Below the pieces are notes generated by a model. The model was not told the DNA's origin. It did not search any database and saw nothing but the letters and a program-made list of their open reading frames with translations. 40,226 nucleotides of DNA from Gammaproteobacteria bacterium (GTDB taxonomy: Bacteria; Pseudomonadota; Gammaproteobacteria; Steroidobacterales; Steroidobacteraceae): NCBI GenBank assembly GCA_010029775.1, contig RGWK01000001.1, forward strand, positions 1 through 40,226, written 5' to 3'. Positions 17,321 to 29,726 of the stretch are shown in pieces; position 1 is the stretch's first letter; every line of letters starts with the position of its first letter. Both the position numbers and the translations under genes were made by a program.

Positions 17321-18246
17321 TCAGCGCAGCGATTCGACTAACACGTCGGCCAGATCTGCAATGAGTCGCAGCCCCGGGTTGTCGGGCGAGTAGTCGATCT
17401 CCGGCATATCGTCGACCGTGATGGCGAGGGCCACGCGTCCCTGCGGCGTGTAGACGATCCCCACGTCACTGCGCAGCGCATCGAGCCCGCCCGACTTGCT
17501 GAGCACCCGAGAGGCGCCCATGCGGCGCCCAATGCCATCCTTGTGTTTCTGTCGCTCGAGCATGTCGAGCACGATGCGCGAGGATTCCGCATCGACCACC
17601 TTGCCCTGCTCGAGCAGGGTGAGCAGAGTCACCATCTCTCTCGGCGTCGATGAGCCGATGCCGAAACGCTTGTTCGCTTCGATCGATCCGGCGCGGCTCC
17701 AACCTTCAGCAGGCTTCAGTTGCGTGCCGTCACCGCGGACTTTACGCATCGAGCGCGTGACCGGCAGGCCAAGCTCGTCCATGTAGTCGTTGACGGCATC
17801 TGCCGAGATGCGATCGAGAATCAGGTTGGTCGTGGTGTTATCGCTGACGGTAATCATCAGCATGGTCGCATCGCGCAGCGCCAGCGTCTTGCCTGCCGAA
17901 AGATCTGCCGCGACACCGGAGCCAGACACCTTGTCCTGCTCACGAAGCAGCAGGGGCTCATCCCACGAGACCTTCCCCCGCTTCACCAGCATCGCCACGG
18001 TGCAGGCGATCGGCAGTTTGATGGTGCTCGCCGTCCGCACGGGAACGTCGGCACGTACGCCGAACTCGCTGCCCGTGTCGAGGTTACGAGCGTACAGCGA
18101 TACGCTGCCGCGAAAACCCTCTGTAAGCGTGGCGACCCGCGCCGCGAGGGCGGTCGATGATGATGTAGCGTCGGTCTGCGCTGCTGCCGCCCAGGGCGAC
18201 AGCAGCGCAACCGCTGCAATGACGAGCCCGCCGAGTCGACTCAGAA
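17321..18246 (-). CDS. class A beta-lactamase-like serine hydrolase, exported; non-canonical start
   Basis: Motifs STIK (SxxK), SDN and KSG are present. The frame stays open upstream of the track's GTG (18040) and encodes a signal peptide SRLGGLVIAAVALLSPWAAAAQ. No ATG, GTG or TTG occurs before the in-frame stop at 18320-18322. The only plausible start is CTG at 18244-18246, overlapping the receptor stop (CTGA). Confidence 0.7.
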
Positions 18247-21222
18247 GTCCACCCGCACCGACAACTGCACGCGACGCGGCAGGAAGTAGCTGCGGGGCTG
18301 GCCGTAGTTGGCGGCAAACTCAACCTGCTGAATGTTGTAGCCGGTCTGCCGATCGAGCACGTTAAACACGTCGGCACGGAACTTCAGCATCGGCAAGGAG
18401 CCGATCTTGAAGCTCTGCGTGTAGTTCAGATCGAGCTGGTAATGACTGGCGGCGCGACGACTGCCCGCCGGCTCAGCGAACGAGCTGATGGCCGCCGAAG
18501 CGTTGACGAGACCATTGCCGTAGTAGTTACTCGACCAGGTCTCCCAGGGCTGTCCCGACTGATAGACGAGATACGCGCCGATGTTGGCCTTCCAATCCGT
18601 GGTGTAGTGGCCATACACCTTCAGGATGTGCGGCCGGTCACCCGACAAGGTGCCATCCTTGTTGTCCCAGACGTACTGTCCACGTGCATCGTTGTAGAAC
18701 GATGAACCGACGAAGGTGTTGGCATCGTTCACCGTGGTGGTGTTGTCCTGGTCGAAGTTGCCGCGATAGCGGCTGCGCACGTACGAAGCGTTGAGGTAGG
18801 TGCGCTCGCCCGTCCACTCGGCTTCGAGGCTCGCTTCCCAATACTTGGTGTAGCCGCCATCGACCTCGGCGATGACGTAGGTCGAACCCCCGATCTCTGC
18901 ACGGATTGCCGCGAGGTTCGGCACGTAATCACCGAGCGCGCGCAGCGCCTGCGGCACGCCACCGTTGGGGCCGTAGGTCCCTTCCTGCGAGCGCGCGAAG
19001 TTCCAGATGTCCTCCCAGAAGTGCGACCCCTCGCGGTAGCGCACGTGACCGCGGAGAGCCCAGCCATCGGACAGTCGTCGCGTGGTGCCGATCGTGAACT
19101 CATCGATACGGCGCGGTTTCATGTCGGGCACGAACACCTTGCCGCTCGAGGAGCCGCGATACACGGACTCGAGGAAATTGCCGTTCTGGTCGAAGCGAAT
19201 GTCGAGCACGCGACTGAACAAGTTGCGGTCCCAGGAGGCGGCACGGGACAACGAACTCGCCTCGGGGTTGTAGGAGGCAAAATTGGCAAACACCGTGTTC
19301 GACCCGTCGTACCGCCACGTGATGCCAAGTCGCGGCTGAATCATGTCCTTCCAGTCGATCGTGTACATCTTGTACTTGTTGCCCGGCGCGAGTTCGTAGC
19401 CCGAGACGGTGCCCTCCTTGGGCCGCAGACCCTGACCGTAGAGCTCATCCTTGCTGATGAGCACACCGAGGTTGAAGTCGAAGTCCTCCCAGGTGATCGT
19501 GTCGTTGAGTTCGATGTTGTACGACTTCGACGACGAGACGATCAGCGGCTTCAGCGGATTTCCATTGACGTCCTTCGCGCCCGACTCGGTAATCGTGGCC
19601 TGATAGAAGTATGGCACCCGCGGCGTCGTGGTCGTGGTGGTGACCGTGCCGCCGTTGTAGGCGATTACACCCCAACCCTGCGTGGTGCGCATCAACTCCT
19701 CGGAAATCTCTGAGAACTTGACGCCCGCGTGCAGCTGGTGGCTCGTGCTGCCGATCTCGAGCTTGTGATCGAGCGCTACCTCAAACGTGTCGCGATAGAA
19801 GTCCTGATCGTTGATCTCGGGCCACGCGCCGATACGACCACCACCCGCCTTCACGCCCGAAGAGTTCGTGTAGCCGTACTGGTTGATCAGCAGTTGCGCC
19901 TGCTGGTTGTAGAGGATCTGCGCAGGCGTCGTGGCCGTGGCGAGCAGGGTCGGCACCGTGAAGCGCCCCGCGTTGGTCAGATCGGCGATGTTGAGCTTGT
20001 CCCCCGGCTTACCGACGAACGACAGCACCTTGTCCGGCGTGCCTGCGGTCTCGAGGTCGAACTTGCCAAACTTGAAGCTCACCGAGGTGTTCTCGCCTGC
20101 GATCCATGAACCATCGAGCGTCAGGATGCTCTGCTCCGAGCGCTCCCCGGTGGACACCGTATCGGCATCGAGCGTGCCGATACCGGCGCCGTTGCCCTCA
20201 CGCTTGGAGGTGCGCAGGCTGACATTGAACAGCAAATCTTCCGTCGGAGCCCAGGTGAGCTTGCCGAAGTATTCGTTACGGATGCTTTCGTAATCTTTGA
20301 CTGCGCCGTACGCTGTAGTCGGATTGTCGCGGGTGACTTCGGGACGGTAGTAGGACGCGTAGAAGAACAGCGAATCCTCGATGATCGGACCGCCGAATCC
20401 GGCGTTGATCCAACTCTGGTCGAGCGAGTACTTCGAGATGCCGCGCACCTTGGAGACCAGGCTCTTGGGCTGCACCTTGTACTCGACCGTGCCCTTGTAC
20501 TCGTTGGTACCCGACTTGGAGGTCGTGTTGATGGAAAAACCGCCCGCGCGGTTGAAACCGATGGCCTTGACGCCACCGCGTTCCATCGACACGTTCGCCA
20601 CGTCATGAGTCGAGGGGTCGGCCGCGAGATTGCCGAACAGCGGCAGCGACACGTCCACACCATCGAATCCGTACTTATTGTCGACGCCTGAGCCGCCCGC
20701 AGAGGGGCCGAGCACCGCGTTTTCCGAATACTGCACGCCAGGCACGAGCTTGAGCAGGTCACGATAGCTTTGCCCCACGGGCAGACTCTCGACGTTCTTG
20801 GCACTCAAGGAGTTGCCGAGGGAGGCATTGCCTTGGCGGGACAGGCCACTCGAGACGATTGTGACGACCTGCAGGTCCTCGGCGCGCGTGGCCGACAGGG
20901 CGACATCGGCAATGGACGTCTGGTCCAGCAGCACCTCGACATCGACGCGCTGCAGCACACCGGCGGCGTTGCTGAAGGTCAGGGTGTACTTACCCGGCAG
21001 CAGCAGCGGCAGGTTGTAGCTGCCATCGGGGCGCACGGTGGCCGTACGCGGCTTCGGCATCACGTCGCTGGTGGCGGTGACGGTAATGCCGCCCACGGTC
21101 GACCCGGCCGCCTCGGCAGTGACCTTGCCGCGGATGCCACCGGCTTCCTGGGCAAACGAGGGTAGGGACAGAAGTGAGCCGGCCACGAGGGCGGCGGCCA
21201 CGGCTTTGGCGATTGGGTTCAT
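18241..21222 (-). CDS. TonB-dependent outer-membrane receptor, Oar-like (carboxypeptidase-regulatory-like N-domain)
   Basis: 993 aa with a signal peptide. N-terminal GIRGKVTAE...GGITVTATS beta-sandwich, then a plug region, a long beta-barrel with alternating aromatic residues, and a terminal ...VRVDF. Confidence 0.88.
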   Translation of the reverse strand: MNPIAKAVAAALVAGSLLSLPSFAQEAGGIRGKVTAEAAGSTVGGITVTATSDVMPKPRTATVRPDGSYNLPLLLPGKYTLTFSNAAGVLQRVDVEVLLDQTSIADVALSATRAEDLQVVTIVSSGLSRQGNASLGNSLSAKNVESLPVGQSYRDLLKLVPGVQYSENAVLGPSAGGSGVDNKYGFDGVDVSLPLFGNLAADPSTHDVANVSMERGGVKAIGFNRAGGFSINTTSKSGTNEYKGTVEYKVQPKSLVSKVRGISKYSLDQSWINAGFGGPIIEDSLFFYASYYRPEVTRDNPTTAYGAVKDYESIRNEYFGKLTWAPTEDLLFNVSLRTSKREGNGAGIGTLDADTVSTGERSEQSILTLDGSWIAGENTSVSFKFGKFDLETAGTPDKVLSFVGKPGDKLNIADLTNAGRFTVPTLLATATTPAQILYNQQAQLLINQYGYTNSSGVKAGGGRIGAWPEINDQDFYRDTFEVALDHKLEIGSTSHQLHAGVKFSEISEELMRTTQGWGVIAYNGGTVTTTTTTPRVPYFYQATITESGAKDVNGNPLKPLIVSSSKSYNIELNDTITWEDFDFNLGVLISKDELYGQGLRPKEGTVSGYELAPGNKYKMYTIDWKDMIQPRLGITWRYDGSNTVFANFASYNPEASSLSRAASWDRNLFSRVLDIRFDQNGNFLESVYRGSSSGKVFVPDMKPRRIDEFTIGTTRRLSDGWALRGHVRYREGSHFWEDIWNFARSQEGTYGPNGGVPQALRALGDYVPNLAAIRAEIGGSTYVIAEVDGGYTKYWEASLEAEWTGERTYLNASYVRSRYRGNFDQDNTTTVNDANTFVGSSFYNDARGQYVWDNKDGTLSGDRPHILKVYGHYTTDWKANIGAYLVYQSGQPWETWSSNYYGNGLVNASAAISSFAEPAGSRRAASHYQLDLNYTQSFKIGSLPMLKFRADVFNVLDRQTGYNIQQVEFAANYGQPRSYFLPRRVQLSVRVDF

Positions 21223-21347: not shown

Positions 21348-21424
21348 GCGCCCGTAGCTCAGCTGGATAGAGTACTGCCCTCCGAAGGCAGGGGTCGTGA
21401 GTTCGAATCTCGCCGGGCGCGCCA
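21348..21424 (+). tRNA. tRNA-Arg (anticodon CCG)
   Basis: Cloverleaf read by eye. Acceptor GCGCCCG/CGGGCGC, D-arm AGCTCAGCTGGATAGAGT, anticodon stem CTGCC/GGCAG with loop CTCCGAA, T-loop GGTTCGAATC-like GTTCGAATC, and an encoded CCA. Confidence 0.9.
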
Positions 21425-21459
21425 TGTCGATACGCCATCGCTATTCCGGAGAACTCGCC

Positions 21460-22002
21460 ATGATCACCGCGCCGTTCAAATCCCTCTTCGTCACCTTGCT
21501 CGCCTTGAGTTCGGTACTGACGCTGGCCAATGCCCCCGAGGTCGGTAAGCCCGCTCCGGCCTTCAAGTTGCAGGACCAGACCGGCGCGTGGCGTTCGCTC
21601 GCCGACTACCGCGGCAAGTGGGTCGTGCTCTACTTCTATCCCAAGGACAACACCCCGGGCTGCACCACCCAGGCTTGCGAGTTCCGCGACAATATCTTCG
21701 CGTTCCGCCGCGCCAACGCCGTGATCCTCGGCGTCAGTGTCGACAAGGTCGACTCCAAGGAAGCGTTCGCCAAGGAGCACAGCCTGCCCTTCCCGGTGCT
21801 CTCGGATGCGAGCACCGAAGTCACCAAGGCCTACGGTTCGCTGACCAGCTACCCGCAATTCAAGCTGTTCGATATCGCCCGGCGTGACACCTTCATCATC
21901 GATCCGCAGGGCCGCATCGCCCGCCGCTTCGACAACGTGAACCCCAAGGGACACTCGGACATGGTGCTGGCGGAGCTTGCCAAGTTGCAAAAGCAGGGCT
22001 GA
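21460..22002 (+). CDS. bcp: Bcp/PrxQ-type peroxiredoxin with N-terminal signal peptide
   Basis: The ATG at 21460 is preceded by GGAGAA. Signal-like MITAPFKSLFVTLLALSSVLTLANA. AhpC/TSA motif FYPKDNTPGCTTQAC. The longer ORF from 21397 would overlap the tRNA. Confidence 0.85.
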   Translation: MITAPFKSLFVTLLALSSVLTLANAPEVGKPAPAFKLQDQTGAWRSLADYRGKWVVLYFYPKDNTPGCTTQACEFRDNIFAFRRANAVILGVSVDKVDSKEAFAKEHSLPFPVLSDASTEVTKAYGSLTSYPQFKLFDIARRDTFIIDPQGRIARRFDNVNPKGHSDMVLAELAKLQKQG

Positions 22003-22131: not shown

Positions 22132-22150
22132 CCGGAAGGAGGGTGTGGTC

Positions 22151-22831
22151 ATGCTCGAGTTGCCGCCGTCAGTGCCAGGTCATGGCTCGACCCGCGTTGT
22201 GCACCGGGACATCGAGCGTCTGGTTCGCCAGCAACTTGACCAGACGAAGCCCGCACCCCGGCCCGCGCGCTTTCGCCGCAGGGTGCGCCTGACCCACGAC
22301 CTGCTGCTGCGGACGCTGGGTCCGGGGCAGGTCATTAAGGTTGAAGAGTCACGCCGACTCGCCATGTGGGCGTACTACGAACTCAACCGCGACGGCCTGT
22401 ATCAGATGTTCGGCGAGACCATGATCCGGGTTGGCGATGAGGTCGCCACCAGCATGCAGGCCTTCCCGCTGCTCGCTACCCCGCAGTTCTTCGAACGCTA
22501 CACGCGCAGCCTCGCAGGTCACGGTCCGAGCCTGATCGGGGTGATGCTCGAGGTGGTGCAGGCCCTGCTCGGTGAAGTCGGCTACGACCGACGAGCACCG
22601 AAAAACCGCTGGCCGCTCTGGAAACAGCGTGGCAGTGCCCAGTTCGCTTTGCCGCACAGCCTGGTCGCTGGCGACATCCCGGAATTCGGCGATGTAGTGC
22701 TGCGCCATGTGACGCCCAAATCGCGCCTCGAGCAACGGCGGCGCGAAGAGTGGGAACGCATCCGTCAAAGCGGCAAGGTCATCGCCGTGCGTGAACCCTG
22801 GGTGCCGCGCGTGGTGGCGGGCGGACGCTAA
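22151..22831 (+). CDS. hypothetical cytoplasmic protein, no recognisable family
   Basis: Strong RBS (AAGGAGG) 8 nt before the ATG at 22151. GC3-rich codon pattern throughout. No signal peptide, TM segment or known motif. Confidence 0.55.
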   Translation: MLELPPSVPGHGSTRVVHRDIERLVRQQLDQTKPAPRPARFRRRVRLTHDLLLRTLGPGQVIKVEESRRLAMWAYYELNRDGLYQMFGETMIRVGDEVATSMQAFPLLATPQFFERYTRSLAGHGPSLIGVMLEVVQALLGEVGYDRRAPKNRWPLWKQRGSAQFALPHSLVAGDIPEFGDVVLRHVTPKSRLEQRRREEWERIRQSGKVIAVREPWVPRVVAGGR

Positions 22832-22872: not shown

Positions 22873-24504
22873 TCAGCCCGCGCGCGTCGGCTCGGTCAGA
22901 TACATCGGAAACACCACCCGAACAACCTCGCGCCACAATTTTGCGCGGGTGTCGTTCTCGTTGAGGCCGGCGATATCGACCAACAGCACTTCGTGGCCGT
23001 TCTGCCTCGCCTGCACGACCGACTGCAGGGCCTCGGGTGCCGCGCCATCCGGCAGAAAAGCGACCAGCAACTCGATGTTGCCAAATTCTTTGCCGAGAAA
23101 GGTCTTCACGTCGACGAAATCGGTCAGATGCAGCACCGCATCGTGCGACACCTCCCGCTCGAGCAGTCGGCGGATGCGCAAGCCCACGCTGCGCATGCCC
23201 GGTCGGTCGATATGCAGCGCGATGATCACCGCATGCTGCGCCTTGCCGACGCGTGAACCGTCCCAGAAGTACTCCACGCCGAGTTCGGTGGCGTGCTGGG
23301 CACTGAAATATGTCTTGGCGATGGTGAAGTAGACGAGTCCGACGTTGAACGGCAGCGTCATGTCGATAACGAAATTGGAGAAGCTGATGCTGAAGAAGGT
23401 AATCACGATCAGCGCCAACTGCCCAATGACGAACACCCGATTGATGGTCGACTGATCGGTACCGGCCATGAAGGCGCGTGACATGGCCACGAGAATGCCG
23501 AGCGCCAAAAGCAGCGCCACCCACGAGGGCATCATGCGCAGTGCCGTGCCATTCAACGCATCGTCGATGGCCGTCGCAATGATGGTGCTGTCGTCGGTGG
23601 TGACCGAGGCCGAGGTCGGCTTGATCACCGATATCCCGGGAGCGGTGGCGCCGATGATCACGATCTTGCCGGCGAACATCGACCAATCGAAGTTGCCGCG
23701 ACCCTGCGAGGCGGCATAGAGATCAGCGAACGATACCCGCCGATAGTCGCCCCGCTTGTTGCGCCAGTTGAGCTTGGCGTTAGGTTCGTCGCTGACGTCG
23801 ATCGAGCCGCCCGCAAGCTGGACGATCACCGCCGCCGTCGAGGGCAACGCATGCGATTGTGTCGGCACCCAATACTGGTAGCGGCGGATGATCCCGTCCC
23901 GTTCGGCGTAAAGGTTGGAGGCACCCATGCGCTTCTGCAGATTCTCGAATAGCGGCAGGATGGCCGCCACCGGATCTGCGGATGGCGAGGGCACCGTGGC
24001 GCGCGCGCCCGGCAATCGGGCAGCATCGAGTTGGCTCACGCCGTCATTGGCCGCCGGTAGCCGCACAAACGGAAAGACGATGTTGGAATAGGAGCCTGCG
24101 ATTTCATTGAGGCTCGCGTCGCCCTCAGGGTCGTTTTTCGAAGGTTCCGACACCAGTTGATTGAGCAGTATCGCCTGCGGCGACTCCTCGGCGATGGTGG
24201 CGAGCGCCTCGGCTACGACGCTGTTGCTCCACGGCCAGCGGCCATGGTCACGGCCCACTTCCTGCAGCGAGCGTTCGTCGATATCAATGATAACGATCCG
24301 CGGGTCGGGCGCCGGGCTCGAAATGCGCAGCTTGACGAGTCGGTCGTAGATCACCTCACTGCCACGCCCCATGACACCCTGCAGCGAGTAATCCGCCAGC
24401 AGCAGCACCGCGATCCCGGCGGCGAGCAACAGGTAGAAGCGCGCCTCCCACCGTCGGCACCAGCTGCCGAAACCTTGCAGCAGAGACAGCAGTAGGGTCT
24501 TCAT
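22873..24504 (-). CDS. CHASE2-domain membrane sensor with unassigned C-terminal domain
   Basis: N-terminal TM helix, then CHASE2 hallmarks (IVIIDIDERSL, GRWPWSNSVVAEAL, KIVIIGATAPG), three TM helices, then about 140 aa with no kinase, GGDEF or canonical cyclase motifs. The start overlaps the upstream stop (ATGA at 24501-24504). Confidence 0.8.
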   Translation of the reverse strand: MKTLLLSLLQGFGSWCRRWEARFYLLLAAGIAVLLLADYSLQGVMGRGSEVIYDRLVKLRISSPAPDPRIVIIDIDERSLQEVGRDHGRWPWSNSVVAEALATIAEESPQAILLNQLVSEPSKNDPEGDASLNEIAGSYSNIVFPFVRLPAANDGVSQLDAARLPGARATVPSPSADPVAAILPLFENLQKRMGASNLYAERDGIIRRYQYWVPTQSHALPSTAAVIVQLAGGSIDVSDEPNAKLNWRNKRGDYRRVSFADLYAASQGRGNFDWSMFAGKIVIIGATAPGISVIKPTSASVTTDDSTIIATAIDDALNGTALRMMPSWVALLLALGILVAMSRAFMAGTDQSTINRVFVIGQLALIVITFFSISFSNFVIDMTLPFNVGLVYFTIAKTYFSAQHATELGVEYFWDGSRVGKAQHAVIIALHIDRPGMRSVGLRIRRLLEREVSHDAVLHLTDFVDVKTFLGKEFGNIELLVAFLPDGAAPEALQSVVQARQNGHEVLLVDIAGLNENDTRAKLWREVVRVVFPMYLTEPTRAG

Positions 24505-25694
24505 GGGCTTGAACCTTTAAATGTGCGAATACGTGGTGCGGCCGTCGAGGCGATCGCGGCTCGCTCGAGCTCGGGTGTGACCTGCGCCGCGACCGCTGCG
24601 ATGCGTTCGGGCAGCGGTGGCGTCATCGCCAACAACAGCGATGCATCGCGCCCCTTGCGCACGGCTTCATCGATATCCTCGAAGACCGTCAGCAATGCCG
24701 AGGTGTCGTAGCCGGCGCGGCCCGCCAGCACCAGAGCATCATGATCCGCCTCGAGAACCGCCGCCGAACCGACGCCTCGCGCCAGCCCGGCCACCGACAG
24801 CGTGGCACCGCGACCCAGCCACTGCTGGCGCTGCACTTGCGCAATCTCGCGTGCGAGCACAGCCGCCAGATCGTCCTCGCTGTCGAGCAGATCAAACAAG
24901 CCGCGCGTCAGTCCGACGAGACCGTTGGGCAGTCCGAAGCTGGCGATGGACGTGGAGTCGAGTACCACAAATCGCCACGGGACCTCGCGCCGCTCCGCAC
25001 CGGCGGCGACGATGTTGCCAACCGTGGAGACATATTGCTGCACGCCGAAATTGCGCACCGGTCGGGCTGCACCGAGCAGTTGCGCCGCCATCTCCTGACC
25101 TGCCGCCCGCTCCTCGGGCGACAACTGCGGCGGCAGCGAATCGGGTAGCGGGGTCAGGTAGCGCAGCGTGCGAGTTTGCAACTGGCCTGCCGCGGCGAAC
25201 TCGAGAGCAGCCTGCGGATCCGGCAGACTCTGCAACAATCGACTGAGCTCGCTCTGGTTTGGCGTGGCCGCAAGCAGCAGTTCGGCCGTCAAGGGTTTTT
25301 GCCGCTTGCCGACTCCGCGAGTGCCACTCGTCAACACCACGTTGCCGCTGGCTTCACGGCCGGTAGACAGCGCTGCGAGACCCGTGTCGAGCGGGCGGGC
25401 CGAGGGCGAGCGCAGACTCGACAAACGGAGCCAGCCCGACTGCCCCCGCAAATCTTCCACGCGGCGCCAGAATCCCTTGCGCTCGAAACCCGTGAGGTTG
25501 TGCCCCGCTCGCAGCGTCGTCACGGGGCGGGCCGTTGCCAGCGGCTCCTGACGCAATGCGTCGTCGCGAGCGAGAACCAAGCGCTCACCCCGGGTAGCCG
25601 CCCCGTCAACCGCAGCCGGTTGAGATTGGCCGAACACAGCGGACGCCCCGAGCACCAGCACGGTCAGCCACGCCTGCTTGAACACCCTCCCCAT
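24501..25694 (-). CDS. exported SH3b-like plus M48-family peptidase-like protein with degenerate zinc site (pseudoprotease)
   Basis: Signal peptide present. SH3b-like segment RAGHNLTGFERKGFWRRVEDLRGQSGWLRLSSL. The M48-like core LAAVLAREIAQV sits where M48 enzymes have LAxVLAHEIxHV. The downstream LEADHDALVLAGRAGYD resembles the E-EAD...AGYDP block. Confidence 0.7.
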   Translation of the reverse strand: MGRVFKQAWLTVLVLGASAVFGQSQPAAVDGAATRGERLVLARDDALRQEPLATARPVTTLRAGHNLTGFERKGFWRRVEDLRGQSGWLRLSSLRSPSARPLDTGLAALSTGREASGNVVLTSGTRGVGKRQKPLTAELLLAATPNQSELSRLLQSLPDPQAALEFAAAGQLQTRTLRYLTPLPDSLPPQLSPEERAAGQEMAAQLLGAARPVRNFGVQQYVSTVGNIVAAGAERREVPWRFVVLDSTSIASFGLPNGLVGLTRGLFDLLDSEDDLAAVLAREIAQVQRQQWLGRGATLSVAGLARGVGSAAVLEADHDALVLAGRAGYDTSALLTVFEDIDEAVRKGRDASLLLAMTPPLPERIAAVAAQVTPELERAAIASTAAPRIRTFKGSSP

Positions 25695-25756: not shown

Positions 25757-27823
25757 ATGCATTGCGCCGACCCGTATCGCGCCCATCGGTATCGCGACCC
25801 TCGCCGGCGGGAGAACGTCCGCGGGTTGCGGTTCTCCAGCGCGATGCTGCTGTCACTGTACGTGCTCAGCCCCCCCGCAACTGCGATCGATACCATCCGC
25901 TTCGCGGCGCGCGAAATCACCGCGGCGGGTACACGCTTCGAGAACGTGGAGGTGAAACTCGCCCTCGACCCGCAAACCGGACTGCCCCGTGGACGCATCT
26001 CGGCAGGCAGCACGCTCATCGGCCCGGTCGCCTTCGACGTCGCGCTTAGCGAGAGGCCCGAACTCGGCGAAACGATTTTGACCGGCGAACGCTTCGCCAT
26101 CGCGGGTGGAGAACTTGGCATTGAAGCGGTGTTTACCTCGAGCCGCTGGAGCATCGAGGGTCGCGCAGAACGTATTGAGAGCGACGGCCTGCTCACCTTC
26201 ACGCGTCGTTACATCAACATACCACCCGATGTCACCGCCGCCGGACGCCTCGATGGCCTCGTTCGTTTCGAGGGTCGCGCAGGGCGCGAACTGCCCACAA
26301 AGGCGTATGCGGAATTCCGCGGCACCGGCGTCGGCTTCGCCAACGGTGAAGGCAGTGTCGCGGGCGAAGGTATCGATGTCCGCTTGCGACTGCAGGCCGA
26401 TGCGCTCACCGGCACGGCGTACTCGCTGCAGGGCGATCTGCGCAGCGCGGCAGGGGAAGCGTTGCTCGGCAATACCTACCTGCGGCTCGGCAAGTACCCG
26501 ACATCCATCGATCTGACAGGGCGCTTCGATGGCGACTCGATCGACATCGAGCAACTCAACGTCGCGCAGCAAGGACTGGTCCGTGCCAGCCTCGCCGCGA
26601 ACCTCACGCTCGGTGCCGCGTTCATCGACACTCCGCTCGACCCCAACTCGGTAAAGGTCAGGCGTGCCGATCTGACCTTGCACGAACTGCGTTTCCCCGA
26701 CGTCTACACGAGCTATTTGCAAACGGCGCTCGCCGGCACCGCGCTCGACTCGCTCGACACCGCAGGCACTGTCTCAGGCCAATTGCACATCGTTGATAAC
26801 GTACCGCAAGCTGCGGAGCTTCGCCTCGCGGATCTACGGGCGCGCGACAGCGAGGGCATGTTCCACCTCGATGGACTGAATGGCGAGTTGTATTGGACCG
26901 CCGAGGGCGAAGAACCCGCAGCACCGTCGTTTCTCGCCTGGGACTCCGGCGGCGCCTACGACATCGGCGGCGACGGCAGCTCGATGCGGCTGATCCTGCG
27001 CGGATCGACGGCTGCACTGCTCGAGCCCGCTCGGCTGCCGATTTTCGATGGTGCACTCAACATCCAGCAGTTGCGCATCGTCGATCCGGGCCAAGAGTCA
27101 ATGCAGGTGGAATTCACCGGTGAACTTGAACCCATCAGCATGGAGGAGCTCACCAAGGCGTTCGGCTGGCCGGCCTTCGGCGGCGTCGTAACCGGTCGAA
27201 TCCCGGGCGTGCTCTATCGCGACAACAAGATCACGGTCGCAGGCGACATCGAAGCTGAAATCTTTGATGGCATCGTGCGCGGCAGCAACATCACGCTGAG
27301 CGATCCGCTCGGCCGATGGCCGAGGCTCGAGGCAGATATCCGCGTCGAAAATCTCGACCTCGAAGCCCTGACCCGCACCTTCGAGGTGGGCACGATCACC
27401 GGCCGCCTCGAGGGTGAACTCAACAATCTGCAGTTGTTCAACTGGTCGCCAACCGCCTTCGACATGTATCTCGGCACCCCTGCCGACGATCGAAGTCACC
27501 GCGAGATCAGCGTCGATGCCATCAACAGCATCGCCAACGTCGGCGGCACCGCCGGCACGGGCGTCGCGGCAGCGATGCGCACCGGCGTGCTGCGATTTTT
27601 CTCAAAATATCGCTACAAGCGGCTTGCGCTGCGCTGCGTGCTCGAGGATGACATCTGCAATCTCTCCGGCGCATCCATCTCGCCGAACCGGTACTATCTG
27701 CTCGAAGGCGCGGGCGTGCCGCGCGTCGATATCATTGGCAATACGGGTCGCGTGCGGTGGTCCGAGCTGCTCGAGCAGATCGAATGGCAAATCCGCACCG
27801 GCGGAACATTCATCGTCGACTAG
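25757..27823 (+). CDS. YdbH-like AsmA-superfamily envelope protein
   Basis: A long repetitive beta-rich protein. Its C-terminal block reads ...LRCVLEDDICNLSG...YYLLEGAGVPRVDIIGNTGRVRWSELLEQI, and a YdbL-type gene follows immediately, as in the ydbH-ynbE-ydbL operon. The start is uncertain (alternative ATG at 25844). Confidence 0.6.
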   Translation: MHCADPYRAHRYRDPRRRENVRGLRFSSAMLLSLYVLSPPATAIDTIRFAAREITAAGTRFENVEVKLALDPQTGLPRGRISAGSTLIGPVAFDVALSERPELGETILTGERFAIAGGELGIEAVFTSSRWSIEGRAERIESDGLLTFTRRYINIPPDVTAAGRLDGLVRFEGRAGRELPTKAYAEFRGTGVGFANGEGSVAGEGIDVRLRLQADALTGTAYSLQGDLRSAAGEALLGNTYLRLGKYPTSIDLTGRFDGDSIDIEQLNVAQQGLVRASLAANLTLGAAFIDTPLDPNSVKVRRADLTLHELRFPDVYTSYLQTALAGTALDSLDTAGTVSGQLHIVDNVPQAAELRLADLRARDSEGMFHLDGLNGELYWTAEGEEPAAPSFLAWDSGGAYDIGGDGSSMRLILRGSTAALLEPARLPIFDGALNIQQLRIVDPGQESMQVEFTGELEPISMEELTKAFGWPAFGGVVTGRIPGVLYRDNKITVAGDIEAEIFDGIVRGSNITLSDPLGRWPRLEADIRVENLDLEALTRTFEVGTITGRLEGELNNLQLFNWSPTAFDMYLGTPADDRSHREISVDAINSIANVGGTAGTGVAAAMRTGVLRFFSKYRYKRLALRCVLEDDICNLSGASISPNRYYLLEGAGVPRVDIIGNTGRVRWSELLEQIEWQIRTGGTFIVD

Positions 27824-27851
27824 GCTTTCATTTCCCTTCGAGGTGTAGATC

Positions 27852-28496
27852 ATGAGAACCCTGCTGCGCCTAAACCTCTCGCTCGTCACGCTGCTGATTT
27901 CGGCCTGCGTCACCATCAACGTGTACTTTCCGGCGGGCGCAGCGGAAAAGGCCGCGGACGAAATCATCGACTCGGTCATCAAGGGTGCGGGCAAGACTGC
28001 GCCTCGCAGTTCGGCACCCGCCACGAGGCCGAACACCCCGCCCTCATCCATGCGACAGGCACCCGACACGCACTGGCTGCTGTGGCTCGCCGGCCGCACT
28101 CTGTATGCACTGGTTCCTGCGGCACACGCTCAAGGCGTCGATGCCAACATGGACGTGTCGTCACCGGAGATCCGCGCCATCACAGCCTCGATGCAGCAGC
28201 GCTTCGGTCAACTTGAGCGTTTTTTCGATGCTGGGGTAATCGGGCTGACGACCACGGGTCTCATCGAAATACGCGATGCGAACGCGGCAGCACTGCCTGA
28301 TCGAGCGCTGGTACGCCGGCTTGTCGCCGATGACAACAACGACCGCAACGCGCTGTACGAGGCCATCGCCCGCGCCAACGACCGGCCCGAGTGGGAGGAA
28401 GACATCCGGCGAATCTTTGCTCAGCGCTGGATCGAGCGCGGCGCCAAGCCCGGTTGGTACTACCAGGACGGCGACGGCAACTGGCAGCAGCGCTGA
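27852..28496 (+). CDS. lipoprotein fused to a YdbL (DUF1318)-like domain
   Basis: Lipobox LLISAC followed by VTINVYFPAGAAEKAADEII. A Pro/Ser linker comes next, then a second signal-like segment WLLWLAGRTLYALVPAAHAQG. The C-terminal part NNDRNALYEAIARANDRPEWEEDIRRIFAQRWIERGAKPGWYYQDGDGNWQQR parallels E. coli YdbL. Confidence 0.65.
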   Translation: MRTLLRLNLSLVTLLISACVTINVYFPAGAAEKAADEIIDSVIKGAGKTAPRSSAPATRPNTPPSSMRQAPDTHWLLWLAGRTLYALVPAAHAQGVDANMDVSSPEIRAITASMQQRFGQLERFFDAGVIGLTTTGLIEIRDANAAALPDRALVRRLVADDNNDRNALYEAIARANDRPEWEEDIRRIFAQRWIERGAKPGWYYQDGDGNWQQR

Positions 28497-28508
28497 TCGC
28501 GAGCCGCC

Positions 28509-29726
28509 TTGACCCGCAAACGTCAACGCCTACTGTTCATCGTCGGAGGCCTGCTGGCGAGCATCGCCCTTGGCGTTGTGCTCATCGTGATTTTTCGCAA
28601 CCCGTTGCTGAACTCCGCGCTGGTGAGGCGAGAAGTCAGCGCCGTGCTGCGCGAGGAAGTCGGCCGCGAGGTCGATTTGAAAGGCGCGCTGCGCATCGAT
28701 GAGTGGCCGTGGGTGCAGCTTGACGTCGGTCGTGGATCCATCGCCAATCCAGCGGGCTTCGCGGGTCCGCCGCTCGTGCAATGGGAGCTGATCGAAATGC
28801 GCTTCCACTACAGCACGGCCTATGAGGAAGAGCCGTTGCTGTACGGCGTCATCATCCACGGACTGCGGGTTCACCTGCGCATCGATGCGGCGGGCCGTGA
28901 CAACTTCAGCGACCTGGGCTCTCGTGACCCGACACCACCCAGTGTGCCGCTGAATGTACCGAGGGTCGAAATCCGCGACGCCGAATTGAGCTTCACCGAC
29001 GAGCGCGAATCCGCCGAACCCCGGTTCGTCGCACGATCCATCACGCTGCGCACAGGCACCGTCGAGCGCGGTGTCGGCGCCGTGGAGGGTAAGCGCTGGC
29101 GCATCGCAGACATCGAGCTGAGCGCCAAGCCCCTCGATCTCGACACCGCCGTGCTGCGCGTACCCGCCTTGTCGGTGGATGCCAACGTCCCGTCGGCGCG
29201 GATCCCGGCGGCAACGCTCTCCCTCGGCCCCGTTCGCTTGCGTCTTAGCGATTTGGCCGTCGCCGCGCCGAAGGACGCGGCACTGCAGGGTTCCGGACGC
29301 TTCGCGCTTGATCCGGTGCCGCTCGCTAGCGTGTTCAAAGCCGCAGGACAACCGCCTCCCTTCGCGGCGAACTCGCCGTGGTTTCGACTGCGCAGCCTGT
29401 CGGGCAGCCTCCGCCCTGGCCCGACTGGCCTGCGGATCGACGATCTGCGCCTCGGTATCGACGAGCTGCGCTTGCAAGGCAGAGTGACGATCGGTAACAC
29501 GATCCGCTTCGCGCTCGAGGGGAATCGGCTCGACCTCGACCGCTATGTCCGTGCCCTGACCAACGATGCCCCGGCCAATGAGTCGCCTGCAACGCCGGCG
29601 GCCGGTTTCCCGGGTAAGACGTTGTTGGGACTGCCGCTCGAGGGTACGGTGCACCTCGACAGCGCCGTCTCGGGGGGACTGCGGATGCAGGATGTGACGC
29701 TGGAAGTCACGCACCGCGGTCGCTGA
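28509..29726 (+). CDS. AsmA-family protein (short form)
   Basis: TTG start. N-terminal TM anchor (LLFIVGGLLASIALGVVLIVIF) followed by AsmA-like beta-rich repeats and a C-terminal ...LEGTVHLDSAVSGGLRMQDVTLEV. Confidence 0.6.
   Translation: MTRKRQRLLFIVGGLLASIALGVVLIVIFRNPLLNSALVRREVSAVLREEVGREVDLKGALRIDEWPWVQLDVGRGSIANPAGFAGPPLVQWELIEMRFHYSTAYEEEPLLYGVIIHGLRVHLRIDAAGRDNFSDLGSRDPTPPSVPLNVPRVEIRDAELSFTDERESAEPRFVARSITLRTGTVERGVGAVEGKRWRIADIELSAKPLDLDTAVLRVPALSVDANVPSARIPAATLSLGPVRLRLSDLAVAAPKDAALQGSGRFALDPVPLASVFKAAGQPPPFAANSPWFRLRSLSGSLRPGPTGLRIDDLRLGIDELRLQGRVTIGNTIRFALEGNRLDLDRYVRALTNDAPANESPATPAAGFPGKTLLGLPLEGTVHLDSAVSGGLRMQDVTLEVTHRGR

What the first reader, a model, noticed from the sequence alone, without database searches (positions are those of the whole stretch)
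22873..25694. CHASE2 sensor with an unassignable output domain coupled to an SH3b-M48 pseudoprotease
The two minus-strand genes overlap by ATGA (24501-24504), so they are co-translated. The upstream product is exported. It has an SH3b-like segment and an M48 (BepA/LoiP-like) core, but the zinc motif HExxH reads R-E-I-A-Q. The R codon is 24849-24851 and the Q codon is 24837-24839, both verified on the DNA. The later LEAD...AGYD block is retained. It therefore probably binds peptide or envelope ligands without cleaving them. The downstream CHASE2 protein ends in about 140 cytoplasmic residues (about 22876-23292) with none of the usual CHASE2 outputs (class III cyclase, GGDEF, His-kinase, Ser/Thr kinase). 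The alternation AVIIALHID / ...ELLVAF / ...VLLVDIAG faintly recalls a cyclase-homology fold that has lost its metal-binding Asp residues. A catalytically dead periplasmic protease feeding a sensor with a cryptic output is, to my knowledge, not a described signalling pair.
Basis: partly seen in the sequence, partly recalled or inferred. Interest (0 to 1): 0.65.

Follow-up and report, generated by a model that had tools for sequence, protein, structure and literature searches.

The report
Dead M48 protease partnered with CHASE2 receptor
The two genes are a fused, catalytically dead version of a widespread three-gene envelope cassette that I found described in no paper: a CHASE2 membrane receptor with a small non-enzymatic cytoplasmic domain, an SH3 protein and an M48 protease, which gives a concrete handle on how CHASE2 receptors work.

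Summary
Genes 24501-25694(-) and 22873-24504(-) overlap by ATGA.

The upstream product has a signal peptide, an SH3b barrel, a linker and an M48 core. The M48 zinc site is gone:
- BepA H136 is R282.
- BepA H140 is Q286.
- BepA E201 is V313.
- T-H-P is T-P-P.
- The catalytic Glu (E283) is kept.

The downstream product is a CHASE2 receptor. Its last ~140 residues match no sequence family. They fold with good confidence (pLDDT 82) as a beta-alpha-beta-beta-alpha-beta domain. Its best, but weak, structural matches are ACT domains. No cyclase, GGDEF or kinase appears.

The new result is context. Of 56 related loci with enough flank, 49 carry three genes:
- a short CHASE2 protein;
- an SH3b protein with a nearly invariant linear motif (SGRaGtGxVVxttGxRGL);
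- an M48 protease.

Nearly all of these M48 genes have intact HExxH. Only the window's clade (Nevskiaceae-like freshwater bacteria) has fused SH3b to M48 and lost the zinc ligands. That gene is still under strong purifying selection (dN/dS 0.06-0.08).

Most likely the dead M48 is a binding subunit or co-receptor of the CHASE2 protein. The mechanism is inferred, not shown. No paper found links CHASE2 with M48.

The parts
24501..25694 (-). Gene for the exported SH3b-linker-M48 pseudoprotease (397 aa)
   Evidence: ORF; Pfam M48 E 7.3e-12; AF2 model pLDDT 82; Foldseek 3c37 5.7e-8 and BepA 2.5e-7; dN/dS 0.07-0.08 against L006/L007
25629..25694 (-). Probable Sec signal peptide (residues ~1-22, MGRVFKQAWLTVLVLGASAVFG)
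   Evidence: N-terminal helix 3-20 followed by a low-confidence segment in the model; no Cys, so not a lipoprotein. Inferred, not run through a predictor.
25419..25589 (-). SH3b-like beta-barrel (residues ~36-92)
   Evidence: Strands 37-90 in the model; Foldseek to bacterial SH3b of 3npf/4r0k (rmsd 1.8 A) and 2krs; Pfam SH3_4 E 2.7e-4, below cut-off here; SH3_3 above cut-off in the Methylotenera orthologue
25314..25385 (-). Conserved linear motif in a segment predicted disordered (residues 104-127, TGLAALSTGREASGNVVLTSGTRG)
   Evidence: pLDDT below 40 for residues 100-130, yet this is the best conserved stretch of the module in 72 sequences. Consensus a-S-G-R-a-G-t-G-x-V-V-x-t-t-G-x-R-G-L; upper-case positions at least 80% conserved, lower-case 50-80%
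25179..25292 (-). Three-helix module between the motif and the M48 core (residues ~135-172)
   Evidence: Helices 137-142, 147-155 and 160-169 in the model; conserved in the stand-alone SH3 proteins
24519..25124 (-). M48 core without zinc ligands (residues ~191-392)
   Evidence: dN/dS 0.06 for this part alone
24837..24851 (-). Degenerate HExxH motif: R282-E283-I-A-Q286
   Evidence: Read on the DNA; aligned to HEINH of 3c37 and HEISH of BepA
24756..24758 (-). V313 codon at the position of the third zinc ligand (BepA E201)
   Evidence: phmmer alignment to 6sar, whose chain numbering equals the BepA numbering; MAFFT alignment with intact relatives that carry E-F-E-A-D
24501..24504 (-). ATGA overlap of stop and start codons (translational coupling)
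   Evidence: the same 4-base overlap is present in L001
22873..24504 (-). Gene for the short CHASE2 membrane protein (543 aa)
   Evidence: ORF; Pfam CHASE2 E 2e-38; 161 homologues, the 120 listed being 306-588 aa (most 536-588) and carrying only CHASE2 in Pfam
23485..24396 (-). Periplasmic CHASE2 domain (residues 37-340), preceded by TM1 (residues 23-41)
   Evidence: family-invariant residues (DIDE, GRWPW and others) are all present
23302..23520 (-). Membrane segments after CHASE2 (residues 329-401)
   Evidence: Hydropathy peaks at 329-347 and 357-375. A third, weaker segment at 379-401 carries the invariant D381. It is taken as a membrane segment by homology with CHASE2 kinases, which have three segments here (PMC5192318).
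22876..23292 (-). Cytoplasmic C-terminal domain, ACT-like ferredoxin fold (residues 405-543)
   Evidence: AF2 pLDDT 82, pTM 0.79, b-a-b-b-a-b plus a C-terminal helix; Foldseek best matches are ACT domains, E 7e-3 to 7e-2; no Pfam, NCBIfam or PDB sequence match; phmmer over 1.84 billion representatives finds only this CHASE2 family

Best explanation
The locus is a derived form of a conserved three-part envelope cassette. The ancestral cassette has three genes:
- a short CHASE2 membrane protein, with a periplasmic CHASE2 domain, membrane helices and a small ACT-like cytoplasmic domain;
- a secreted SH3b protein with a nearly invariant linear motif;
- a secreted M48 zinc protease.

In the window's clade the SH3b protein and the M48 protease have fused into one exported polypeptide. 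That polypeptide is translationally coupled to the CHASE2 gene. The M48 moiety has lost all four zinc-site residues but keeps its fold.

My reading is that the dead M48 now acts as a non-catalytic binding subunit, that is, a co-receptor or adaptor. It would hold the conserved motif and/or dock on the periplasmic CHASE2 domain. Occupancy would be relayed through the membrane helices to the ACT-like domain. That domain would signal by protein contacts or ligand binding, not by making a second messenger.

Shown:
- the domain anatomy;
- the loss of the zinc ligands;
- the fold of the C-terminal domain;
- the conservation of the cassette;
- the single origin of the dead, fused form;
- purifying selection on that form.

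Inferred:
- physical interaction of the parts;
- what the conserved motif binds;
- the direction and nature of the signal.
For: Zinc ligands replaced at the aligned positions. M48 and SH3b folds retained.

The dead gene evolves under strong constraint: dN/dS is 0.06-0.08 at dS 0.7-1.0. The first-His-to-Arg change is kept across relatives only 42-45% identical.

Cassette survey:
- Both M48 and SH3 genes lie near the CHASE2 gene in 49 of 56 loci with at least 2.5 kb of flank, and in 69 of 84 loci overall.
- No fourth gene is conserved. The next gene cluster occurs in 22 of 86 loci.
- Gene order varies between lineages (CHASE2>SH3>M48, or SH3>M48>CHASE2) but the three stay together. This argues for a functional unit.

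Fusions of SH3 to an intact M48 also exist (L017, L086), so the two proteins act together. The RExx clade is monophyletic, and its sister group has an intact HEIAH.

The motif is conserved although predicted disordered, which is typical of a binding epitope. It survives in the dead-protease clade.

Precedent that CHASE2 receptors use accessory envelope proteins:
- LysM-FecR with a CHASE2 kinase;
- NsrA with CHASE2 cyclases that sense a protein signal.

Metatranscriptome contigs cover parts of both genes.
Against: - No interaction was tested, and no multimer prediction was possible.
- The ACT-like assignment rests on weak Foldseek scores (best E 7e-3, TM about 0.4). No ligand site is evident.
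- No cytoplasmic partner is encoded in the cassette, so there may be no inward signal at all.
- In most cassettes the M48 is active, so proteolysis is probably part of the ancestral mechanism. Its loss here could mean a changed function rather than a retained one.
- The fourth membrane segment is weak by hydropathy. If it does not span the membrane, the C-terminal domain would be periplasmic.
Confidence: 0.45

Rival explanations
1. The cassette is an envelope proteolysis or quality-control module, not an outside-in sensor. The only enzyme of the ancestral cassette, the M48 protease, is the effector. The CHASE2 protein anchors and regulates it, possibly inside-out through its ACT-like cytoplasmic domain. 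The SH3b protein is its substrate or adaptor. In the window's clade only a protease-independent holdase or adaptor role remains. A protease-independent, chaperone-like role has been reported for BepA (my own knowledge, not checked here).
For: The M48 is the only catalytic domain in the cassette, and no output enzyme or response regulator is conserved nearby. The closest solved relatives are BepA and a stand-alone M48. The cassette lies next to AsmA/DUF1318 envelope genes in the window and in L001.
Against: That synteny is confined to this clade. CHASE2 is otherwise known only as the sensory domain of signalling proteins. A system whose effector is the protease would not be expected to stay under strong constraint once the protease is dead.
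Confidence: 0.3
2. The C-terminal domain is a degenerate class III cyclase or GGDEF-type domain. It would still bind nucleotides.
For: It has the same broad ferredoxin-like beta-alpha-beta-beta-alpha-beta topology. Some sources label family members 'adenylate cyclase'.
Against: No cyclase, GGDEF or kinase appears in the top 50 Foldseek matches, and the best matches are ACT domains. There is no Pfam or NCBIfam hit and no PDB profile hit. The folded part is only ~115 residues.
Confidence: 0.05
3. The M48-like protein is still an active peptidase that uses other residues or another metal.
For: The catalytic Glu (E283) and the E-A-D and A-G-Y-D blocks are kept.
Against: All three zinc ligands and the lid histidine are replaced by R, Q, V and P. 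About 35 residues of the cleft region between the two ligand helices are deleted.
Confidence: 0.03
4. The pair is a decaying remnant with no function.
For: Loss of the catalytic site, and long branches of the RExx clade in the tree.
Against: The reading frames are intact in many samples. dN/dS is 0.06-0.08. The Arg replacement is conserved at 42-45% identity. Transcript fragments are present.
Confidence: 0.02

Closest known systems
BepA (YfgC) of E. coli and the stand-alone M48 peptidase Q74D82 of Geobacter (PDB 6ait/6sar, 3c37)
   Same: Periplasmic M48 fold. These are the best sequence and structure matches. The EAD and AGYD blocks are shared.
   Different: - No TPR domain.
- The NCBIfam BepA model scores 46 bits against a cut-off of 570.
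- The zinc ligands H136, H140 and E201 and the lid H246 are all replaced.
- About 35 residues are deleted between the ligand helices.
- An N-terminal SH3b-linker module is present.
- The gene is coupled to a CHASE2 gene.
LysM-FecR protein plus CHASE2 histidine kinase operon of Burkholderia ('BiofilmReg', PMC5192318)
   Same: A CHASE2 receptor encoded directly after a secreted accessory protein. Here the accessory protein has an SH3b domain; there it has a LysM domain, a cell-wall-binding type. That SH3b domains are also commonly cell-wall-binding is my own knowledge.
   Different: - The accessory module is FecR, not M48. No M48 or SH3 hit was found in those loci.
- The receptor there has PAS-HisKA-HATPase output and a response regulator.
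- Here the output is a ~140-residue ACT-like domain, and there is no regulator gene.
CHASE2 adenylate cyclases CyaD1/CyaD2/CyaK with NsrA of Sinorhizobium meliloti (as summarised in PMC13001267)
   Same: A CHASE2 receptor that needs an accessory envelope protein and responds to a signal of protein nature.
   Different: The accessory protein is an outer-membrane beta-barrel. The output is cAMP. No protease or SH3 is involved.
ACT domains (phenylalanine hydroxylase, aspartate kinase, 3-phosphoglycerate dehydrogenase) and the ACT-like C-terminal domain of MgtC
   Same: beta-alpha-beta-beta-alpha-beta fold. These are the best Foldseek matches to the C-terminal domain. MgtC is also a membrane protein with such a cytoplasmic domain.
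   Different: There is no sequence similarity. An extra long C-terminal helix is present. No ligand-binding loop is recognisable. The scores are weak.
Degenerate LytM (M23) factors EnvC and NlpD, governed by FtsEX (my own knowledge, not tested here)
   Same: It works alike in principle. A periplasmic metallopeptidase fold that has lost its zinc ligands serves as a regulatory binding partner and is controlled by a membrane complex.
   Different: The peptidase family is different (M23, not M48). The membrane partner is different (ABC-type FtsEX, not CHASE2). The known targets there are amidases, whereas no target is known here.

Membership tests
Peptidase family M48 | Sequence and fold of the M48 core | tested here: met
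   Pfam PF01435, 45.9 bits against a cut-off of 20.3; Foldseek 3c37 E 5.7e-8 and BepA E 2.5e-7
Peptidase family M48 | HExxH zinc-binding and catalytic motif | tested here: not met
   R282-E-I-A-Q286 at the aligned position
Peptidase family M48 | Third zinc ligand (the Glu of ExxAD) | tested here: not met
   V313 aligns with BepA E201
Peptidase family M48 | Peptidase activity and zinc content | not testable with these tools
   Needs purified protein
BepA subfamily | C-terminal TPR domain and the equivalog score | tested here: not met
   NCBIfam NF052400, 46 bits against a cut-off of 570. The protein ends after the M48 core.
Bacterial SH3 (SH3b) | SH3 beta-barrel | tested here: met
   Model strands 37-90; Foldseek 3npf/4r0k/2krs, rmsd 1.5-1.9 A. 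Pfam is below cut-off in the window (21.1 against 24.1) but above it in an orthologue (35.5 against 27).
CHASE2 receptors | CHASE2 domain between an N-terminal membrane helix and a cluster of membrane helices | tested here: met
   PF05226, E 2e-38; invariant DIDE and GRWPW residues present. Hydropathy gives TM1 and two clear helices after the domain; the third is weak.
CHASE2 receptors | A recognised output domain (class III cyclase, GGDEF/EAL, His kinase, Ser/Thr kinase) | tested here: not met
   No Pfam or NCBIfam hit in residues 405-543. None among the top 50 Foldseek matches. The same holds for five other cassette members.
ACT domain | beta-alpha-beta-beta-alpha-beta fold | tested here: inconclusive
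   The topology matches. ACT domains are the best Foldseek matches, but only at E 7e-3 or weaker and TM about 0.4.
ACT domain | Sequence membership and small-molecule binding | tested here: not met
   No Pfam ACT hit and no PDB profile hit. Ligand binding is not testable here.
LysM-FecR / CHASE2 kinase operon | FecR-domain partner and a response regulator | tested here: not met
   No such genes in the window cassette. Conversely, there is no M48 or SH3 in the control loci L090-L092.
Known anti-phage defence systems | Match to a PADLOC model | tested here: not met
   No hit for either protein

The most novel reading that the evidence does not exclude
The cassette is a self-contained trans-envelope device of a new type. 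The nearly invariant linear motif of the SH3b protein would be the tethered peptide ligand of the CHASE2 domain, which would make it the first defined CHASE2 ligand. The M48 protease would set signal strength by cutting or holding that motif. The ACT-like domain would couple the device to a cytoplasmic metabolite or partner. The window's clade would then be a natural 'protease-dead, ligand-tethered' mutant locked in one signalling state.
Probability: 0.15. Interest if true: 0.85.

Novelty: new variant of a known kind. Interest (0 to 1): 0.62.

Why it matters
CHASE2 was defined in 2003, and a 2016 paper read here still says that what it recognises is not known.

A CHASE2 subfamily occurs in many Betaproteobacteria, Gammaproteobacteria and Alphaproteobacteria and in Nitrospirales. 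It is almost always encoded with an SH3b protein that carries an invariant motif and with an M48 protease. This points to a specific, testable partner set. Cultivated hosts exist, namely Methylotenera oryzisoli and Methylophilus luteus.

The window adds a natural experiment. Here proteolysis has been abolished, yet the fused protein stays under strong constraint. This suggests that part of the module's function is non-catalytic.

The locus also adds a bacterial example of a pseudoprotease retained as a partner of a membrane receptor. And it defines a new small cytoplasmic domain as a CHASE2 'output'.

Tried and rejected
- **C-terminal domain, sequence search.** phmmer against 1.84 billion representatives returned only the same CHASE2 family. 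The one outside hit (P0219, 8 stretches) is a tandem acyl-carrier-protein repeat, so a false match.
- **PDB profile searches.** Neither the C-terminal domain nor the whole CHASE2 family gave a match.
- **Link between C-terminal domains.** hhalign between the window-type domain and that of 66 other short CHASE2 proteins gave only 40% probability (E 2.9e-4). The alignment is collinear over 118 columns. This suggests one fast-evolving domain but does not prove it.
- **Defence systems.** PADLOC gave no hit.
- **Promoters and terminators.** No promoter-like site was found. The two terminator-like sites lie inside the CHASE2 gene and number no more than chance would give.
- **Fourth conserved gene.** None found.
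- **Cyclase reading of the C-terminus.** Rejected.
- **Decaying-remnant reading.** Rejected by dN/dS.
- **NJ tree.** The P0184-P0199 sequences failed to parse and are not in the tree. Their motifs are taken from alignment A1 instead.
- **Literature.** Searches for CHASE2 with M48, SH3 or protease terms found no relevant paper.
Full report
**1. Observation**

The two minus-strand ORFs are as described: 24501..25694 (397 aa) and 22873..24504 (543 aa). The stop of the first gene and the start of the second share ATGA at 24501-24504.

Pfam results:
- Peptidase_M48 in the first protein: E 7.3e-12, 45.9 bits, cut-off 20.3.
- A sub-threshold bacterial SH3 in the first protein: SH3_4, E 2.7e-4.
- CHASE2 in the second protein: E 2e-38, residues 37-340.
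- Nothing for the last ~140 residues of the second protein.

NCBIfam adds nothing, and the BepA model is far below its cut-off. The codons CGC-GAG-ATT-GCG-CAA at 24851-24837 encode R282-E-I-A-Q286.

**2. The upstream protein**

Alignment with solved M48 structures places LAREIAQ on LAHEINH of 3c37 and on MAHEISH of BepA. The zinc motif therefore does not lie elsewhere.

- BepA E201, the third zinc ligand and the first E of EQEAD, aligns with V313 of VLEAD.
- The histidine of T-H-P-L-P-E (BepA H246) is absent from T-P-P-L-P-E.

About 35 residues between the two ligand-bearing helices are also missing, compared with intact relatives.

An AF2 model (pLDDT 82, pTM 0.80) shows these parts:
- an N-terminal hydrophobic helix, the probable signal peptide;
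- an SH3 barrel, residues 37-90;
- a low-confidence segment, residues 100-130;
- three helices, residues 137-169;
- the M48 core, residues 193-391.

Foldseek returns 3c37 (E 5.7e-8) and BepA (E 2.5e-7) for the core. It returns bacterial SH3b domains for the barrel. The protein is thus a homologue of M48 peptidases that fails the catalytic criteria of the family. It is a pseudoprotease.

**3. The CHASE2 protein**

It has one N-terminal membrane helix (residues 23-41), the CHASE2 domain, and two strong membrane segments plus one weaker one (residues 329-401). About 140 residues follow. All residues that are invariant in the family (DIDE, GRWPW and others) are present.

The C-terminal part was modelled with an alignment of 39 family members. 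The model has pLDDT 82 and pTM 0.79. Its order of elements is beta-alpha-beta-beta-alpha-beta followed by a long helix.

Foldseek against the PDB gives no match below E 1e-3. The best matches are ACT domains: phenylalanine hydroxylase, aspartate kinase regulatory subunits, phosphoglycerate dehydrogenase, AcuB, SerB2, and the ACT-like C-terminal domain of MgtC. No cyclase, GGDEF or kinase domain is among the top 50.

A phmmer scan of 1.84 billion representative proteins finds this domain only in the same CHASE2 family. One apparent exception is a false match to tandem acyl carrier protein repeats. A profile search of PDB sequences is empty.

The domain is therefore a family-specific, non-enzymatic, ACT-like module. 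The cyclase-remnant idea is not supported.

**4. The pairing is part of a conserved three-gene cassette**

The CHASE2 protein has 161 homologues. The 120 listed are 306-588 aa (most 536-588) and carry CHASE2 as their only Pfam domain.

Neighbourhoods of three distant members gave the first hints:
- an M48 gene fused to SH3 and overlapping the CHASE2 gene (L001);
- a separate SH3-like gene plus an M48 gene with intact HEIAH, upstream of CHASE2 (L003);
- a divergent operon with SH3, M48 (HEIAH) and a fused SH3-M48 (L004/L005).

A scan of one genome per species returned 80 loci. I searched their ORFs with HMMs built from the window's own alignments. The counts are as follows:
- Of 56 non-duplicate loci with at least 2.5 kb on both sides, 49 carry both an M48 gene and an SH3-module gene near the CHASE2 gene.
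- Of all 84 non-duplicate loci, 69 do.

All-against-all clustering of neighbouring ORFs finds no fourth conserved family. The next cluster is present in 22 of 86 loci and reflects lineage synteny.

Gene order differs between lineages:
- CHASE2 > SH3 > M48 in Methylotenera, Methylophilus, Gallionella, Sulfuricella, Sideroxydans, Nitrospirales and Desulfuromonadales.
- SH3 > M48 > CHASE2 in Steroidobacteraceae, Alphaproteobacteria and Halieaceae.

The CHASE2 proteins of five other cassettes likewise have only CHASE2 in Pfam. The Methylotenera SH3 partner passes the SH3_3 cut-off, and its M48 partner scores E 1.4e-33. The C-terminal domains of the other cassette receptors align collinearly but weakly with the window type (hhalign 40%, E 2.9e-4).

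**5. The SH3 module carries a linear motif**

In an alignment of 72 distinct SH3-module sequences, the best conserved stretch is not the barrel. It is the segment a-S-G-R-a-G-t-G-x-V-V-x-t-t-G-x-R-G-L, in which the upper-case positions are at least 80% conserved and the lower-case ones 50-80%. In the window this reads STGREASGNVVLTSGTRGV.

This is exactly the segment that AF2 leaves disordered. High conservation without intrinsic structure is what a binding epitope or a cleavage site looks like.

**6. Evolution of the dead form**

Nearly all cassette M48 genes keep HExxH. Fused SH3-M48 genes with an intact HExxH also exist (L017 and L086).

The state of the zinc site in the fused clade:

| Members | Motif | Third ligand |
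|---|---|---|
| window and relatives 85-90% identical | R-E-x-x-Q | Val |
| P0184-P0189, L001, L008 (42-45% identical) | R-E-x-x-H | Glu or Asp kept |

All of these lack the T-H-P histidine.

A neighbour-joining tree of M48 cores puts the RExx sequences in one long-branched clade. Its sister group is Steroidobacteraceae cassettes with HEIAH and a separate SH3 gene. The simplest history has three steps:
1. fusion;
2. first His to Arg;
3. stepwise loss of the remaining ligands in the window's sub-clade.

The gene is not decaying. Against L006 and L007 the values are:

| Region | dN/dS |
|---|---|
| M48-like gene | 0.07-0.08 |
| M48 core alone | about 0.06 |
| CHASE2 gene | 0.05-0.06 |

dS in these comparisons is 0.7-1.0.

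The organism is a Nevskiaceae-like freshwater gammaproteobacterium, judged from the source names of relatives 90% identical and a 93% identical MAG. The sequence is common in freshwater metagenomes. Three metatranscriptomes hold contigs that cover parts of both genes. This is weak evidence of expression.

**7. Controls and what is known**

CHASE2 histidine kinases on Variovorax and Burkholderia replicons are preceded by a response regulator and a FecR-domain protein. Their loci have no M48 or SH3 hit. This is the published LysM-FecR / CHASE2-kinase operon (PMC5192318).

In Sinorhizobium, CHASE2 cyclases need the outer-membrane protein NsrA to respond to a protein signal (PMC13001267).

CHASE2 receptors working with an accessory envelope protein are therefore a known pattern. 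The accessory set SH3b + M48 and the ACT-like output are not. Full-text searches found no paper that links CHASE2 with M48 or with an SH3-protease pair. PADLOC has no model for either protein.

**8. Mechanism**

My preferred reading (about 0.45) is that the dead M48 is a binding subunit of the receptor. The motif, the three-helix module and the remodelled M48 cleft would form a periplasmic co-receptor. It would be made in fixed proportion with the CHASE2 protein through translational coupling. The ACT-like domain would pass the state on by contacts rather than by catalysis.

The main rival (about 0.3) is that the ancestral cassette is a regulated envelope protease. The CHASE2 protein would be its membrane regulator, and the window clade would keep only a holdase or adaptor role.

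The other readings are each unlikely, for the reasons given above:
- a residually active protease;
- a decaying remnant;
- a degenerate cyclase.

None of the interaction steps is shown. They need multimer prediction, binding assays and genetics, for which cultivated cassette carriers exist (Methylotenera oryzisoli, Methylophilus luteus).

**9. Verdict**

The real finding is broader than the one reported.

The window holds a fused, zinc-less variant of a conserved cassette of CHASE2, SH3b and M48 genes that I found described in no paper. I rate it a new variant of a known kind: a CHASE2 receptor with an accessory periplasmic partner. Interest is about 0.6.

Noticed in passing
window 25757-29726 (+): Divergent from the cassette lies a run of envelope genes. 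It comprises a 688-aa protein with no Pfam or NCBIfam hit, a 214-aa protein with a lipoprotein-like N-terminus fused to DUF1318, and an AsmA/DUF748-like protein. The arrangement recalls ydbH-ynbE-ydbL (my own knowledge). The same neighbours flank the cassette in L001.
   Followed up: partly
window 22145-22831 (+): A 228-aa ORF convergent with the CHASE2 gene has no family hit in Pfam, NCBIfam or PADLOC. A homologue (242 aa) sits at the same place in L001 and overlaps the CHASE2 gene end by about 30 bases. It is conserved only in this clade.
   Followed up: partly
L004/L005/L086 (Comamonadaceae MAG), also L012 and L017: A variant cassette. The CHASE2 gene is divergent from a six-gene operon. 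The operon encodes three proteins of 402-503 aa with no Pfam hit, an SH3-module protein, an M48 with HEIAH, and a fused SH3-M48 with HEIAH. A Peptidase_C14 (caspase-like) gene lies about 3 kb beyond it.
   Followed up: partly
L087, L088, L089 (contigs of P0196 and P0197): A second group of fused SH3-M48 proteins has lost the first histidine (REIAK, REIAR). These genes sit directly after a gene whose product looks like a CHAT/caspase-type protein (judged by eye). In L087 the ORF that follows begins with a membrane helix and may be a CHASE2 protein. The contigs are too short to tell.
   Followed up: partly
L031, L046, L054, L069, L075, L083, L084: Seven short CHASE2 genes with ample flank lack a full set of M48 and SH3 neighbours. 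One of them (L083) has a weak SH3 hit only. At least one (L075) comes from a MAG that also holds a full cassette (L042), so these may be paralogues that share the partners in trans.
   Followed up: no
window 21348-21424 (+): tRNA-Arg (CCG). The listed ORF 21397..22002 (AhpC/TSA peroxiredoxin) starts inside it, so the true start of that gene must lie further downstream.
   Followed up: no
window 17321-18040 (-): A 239-aa product has the class A beta-lactamase fold (Pfam Beta-lactamase2, E 8e-49). It is far below every NCBIfam beta-lactamase cut-off, and the match begins at profile position 21, so the ORF start may be miscalled.
   Followed up: no
window 18241-21222 (-): A 993-aa protein has an N-terminal CarboxypepD_reg domain and a sequence that looks like a TonB-dependent outer-membrane receptor. 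There is no NCBIfam hit.
   Followed up: no
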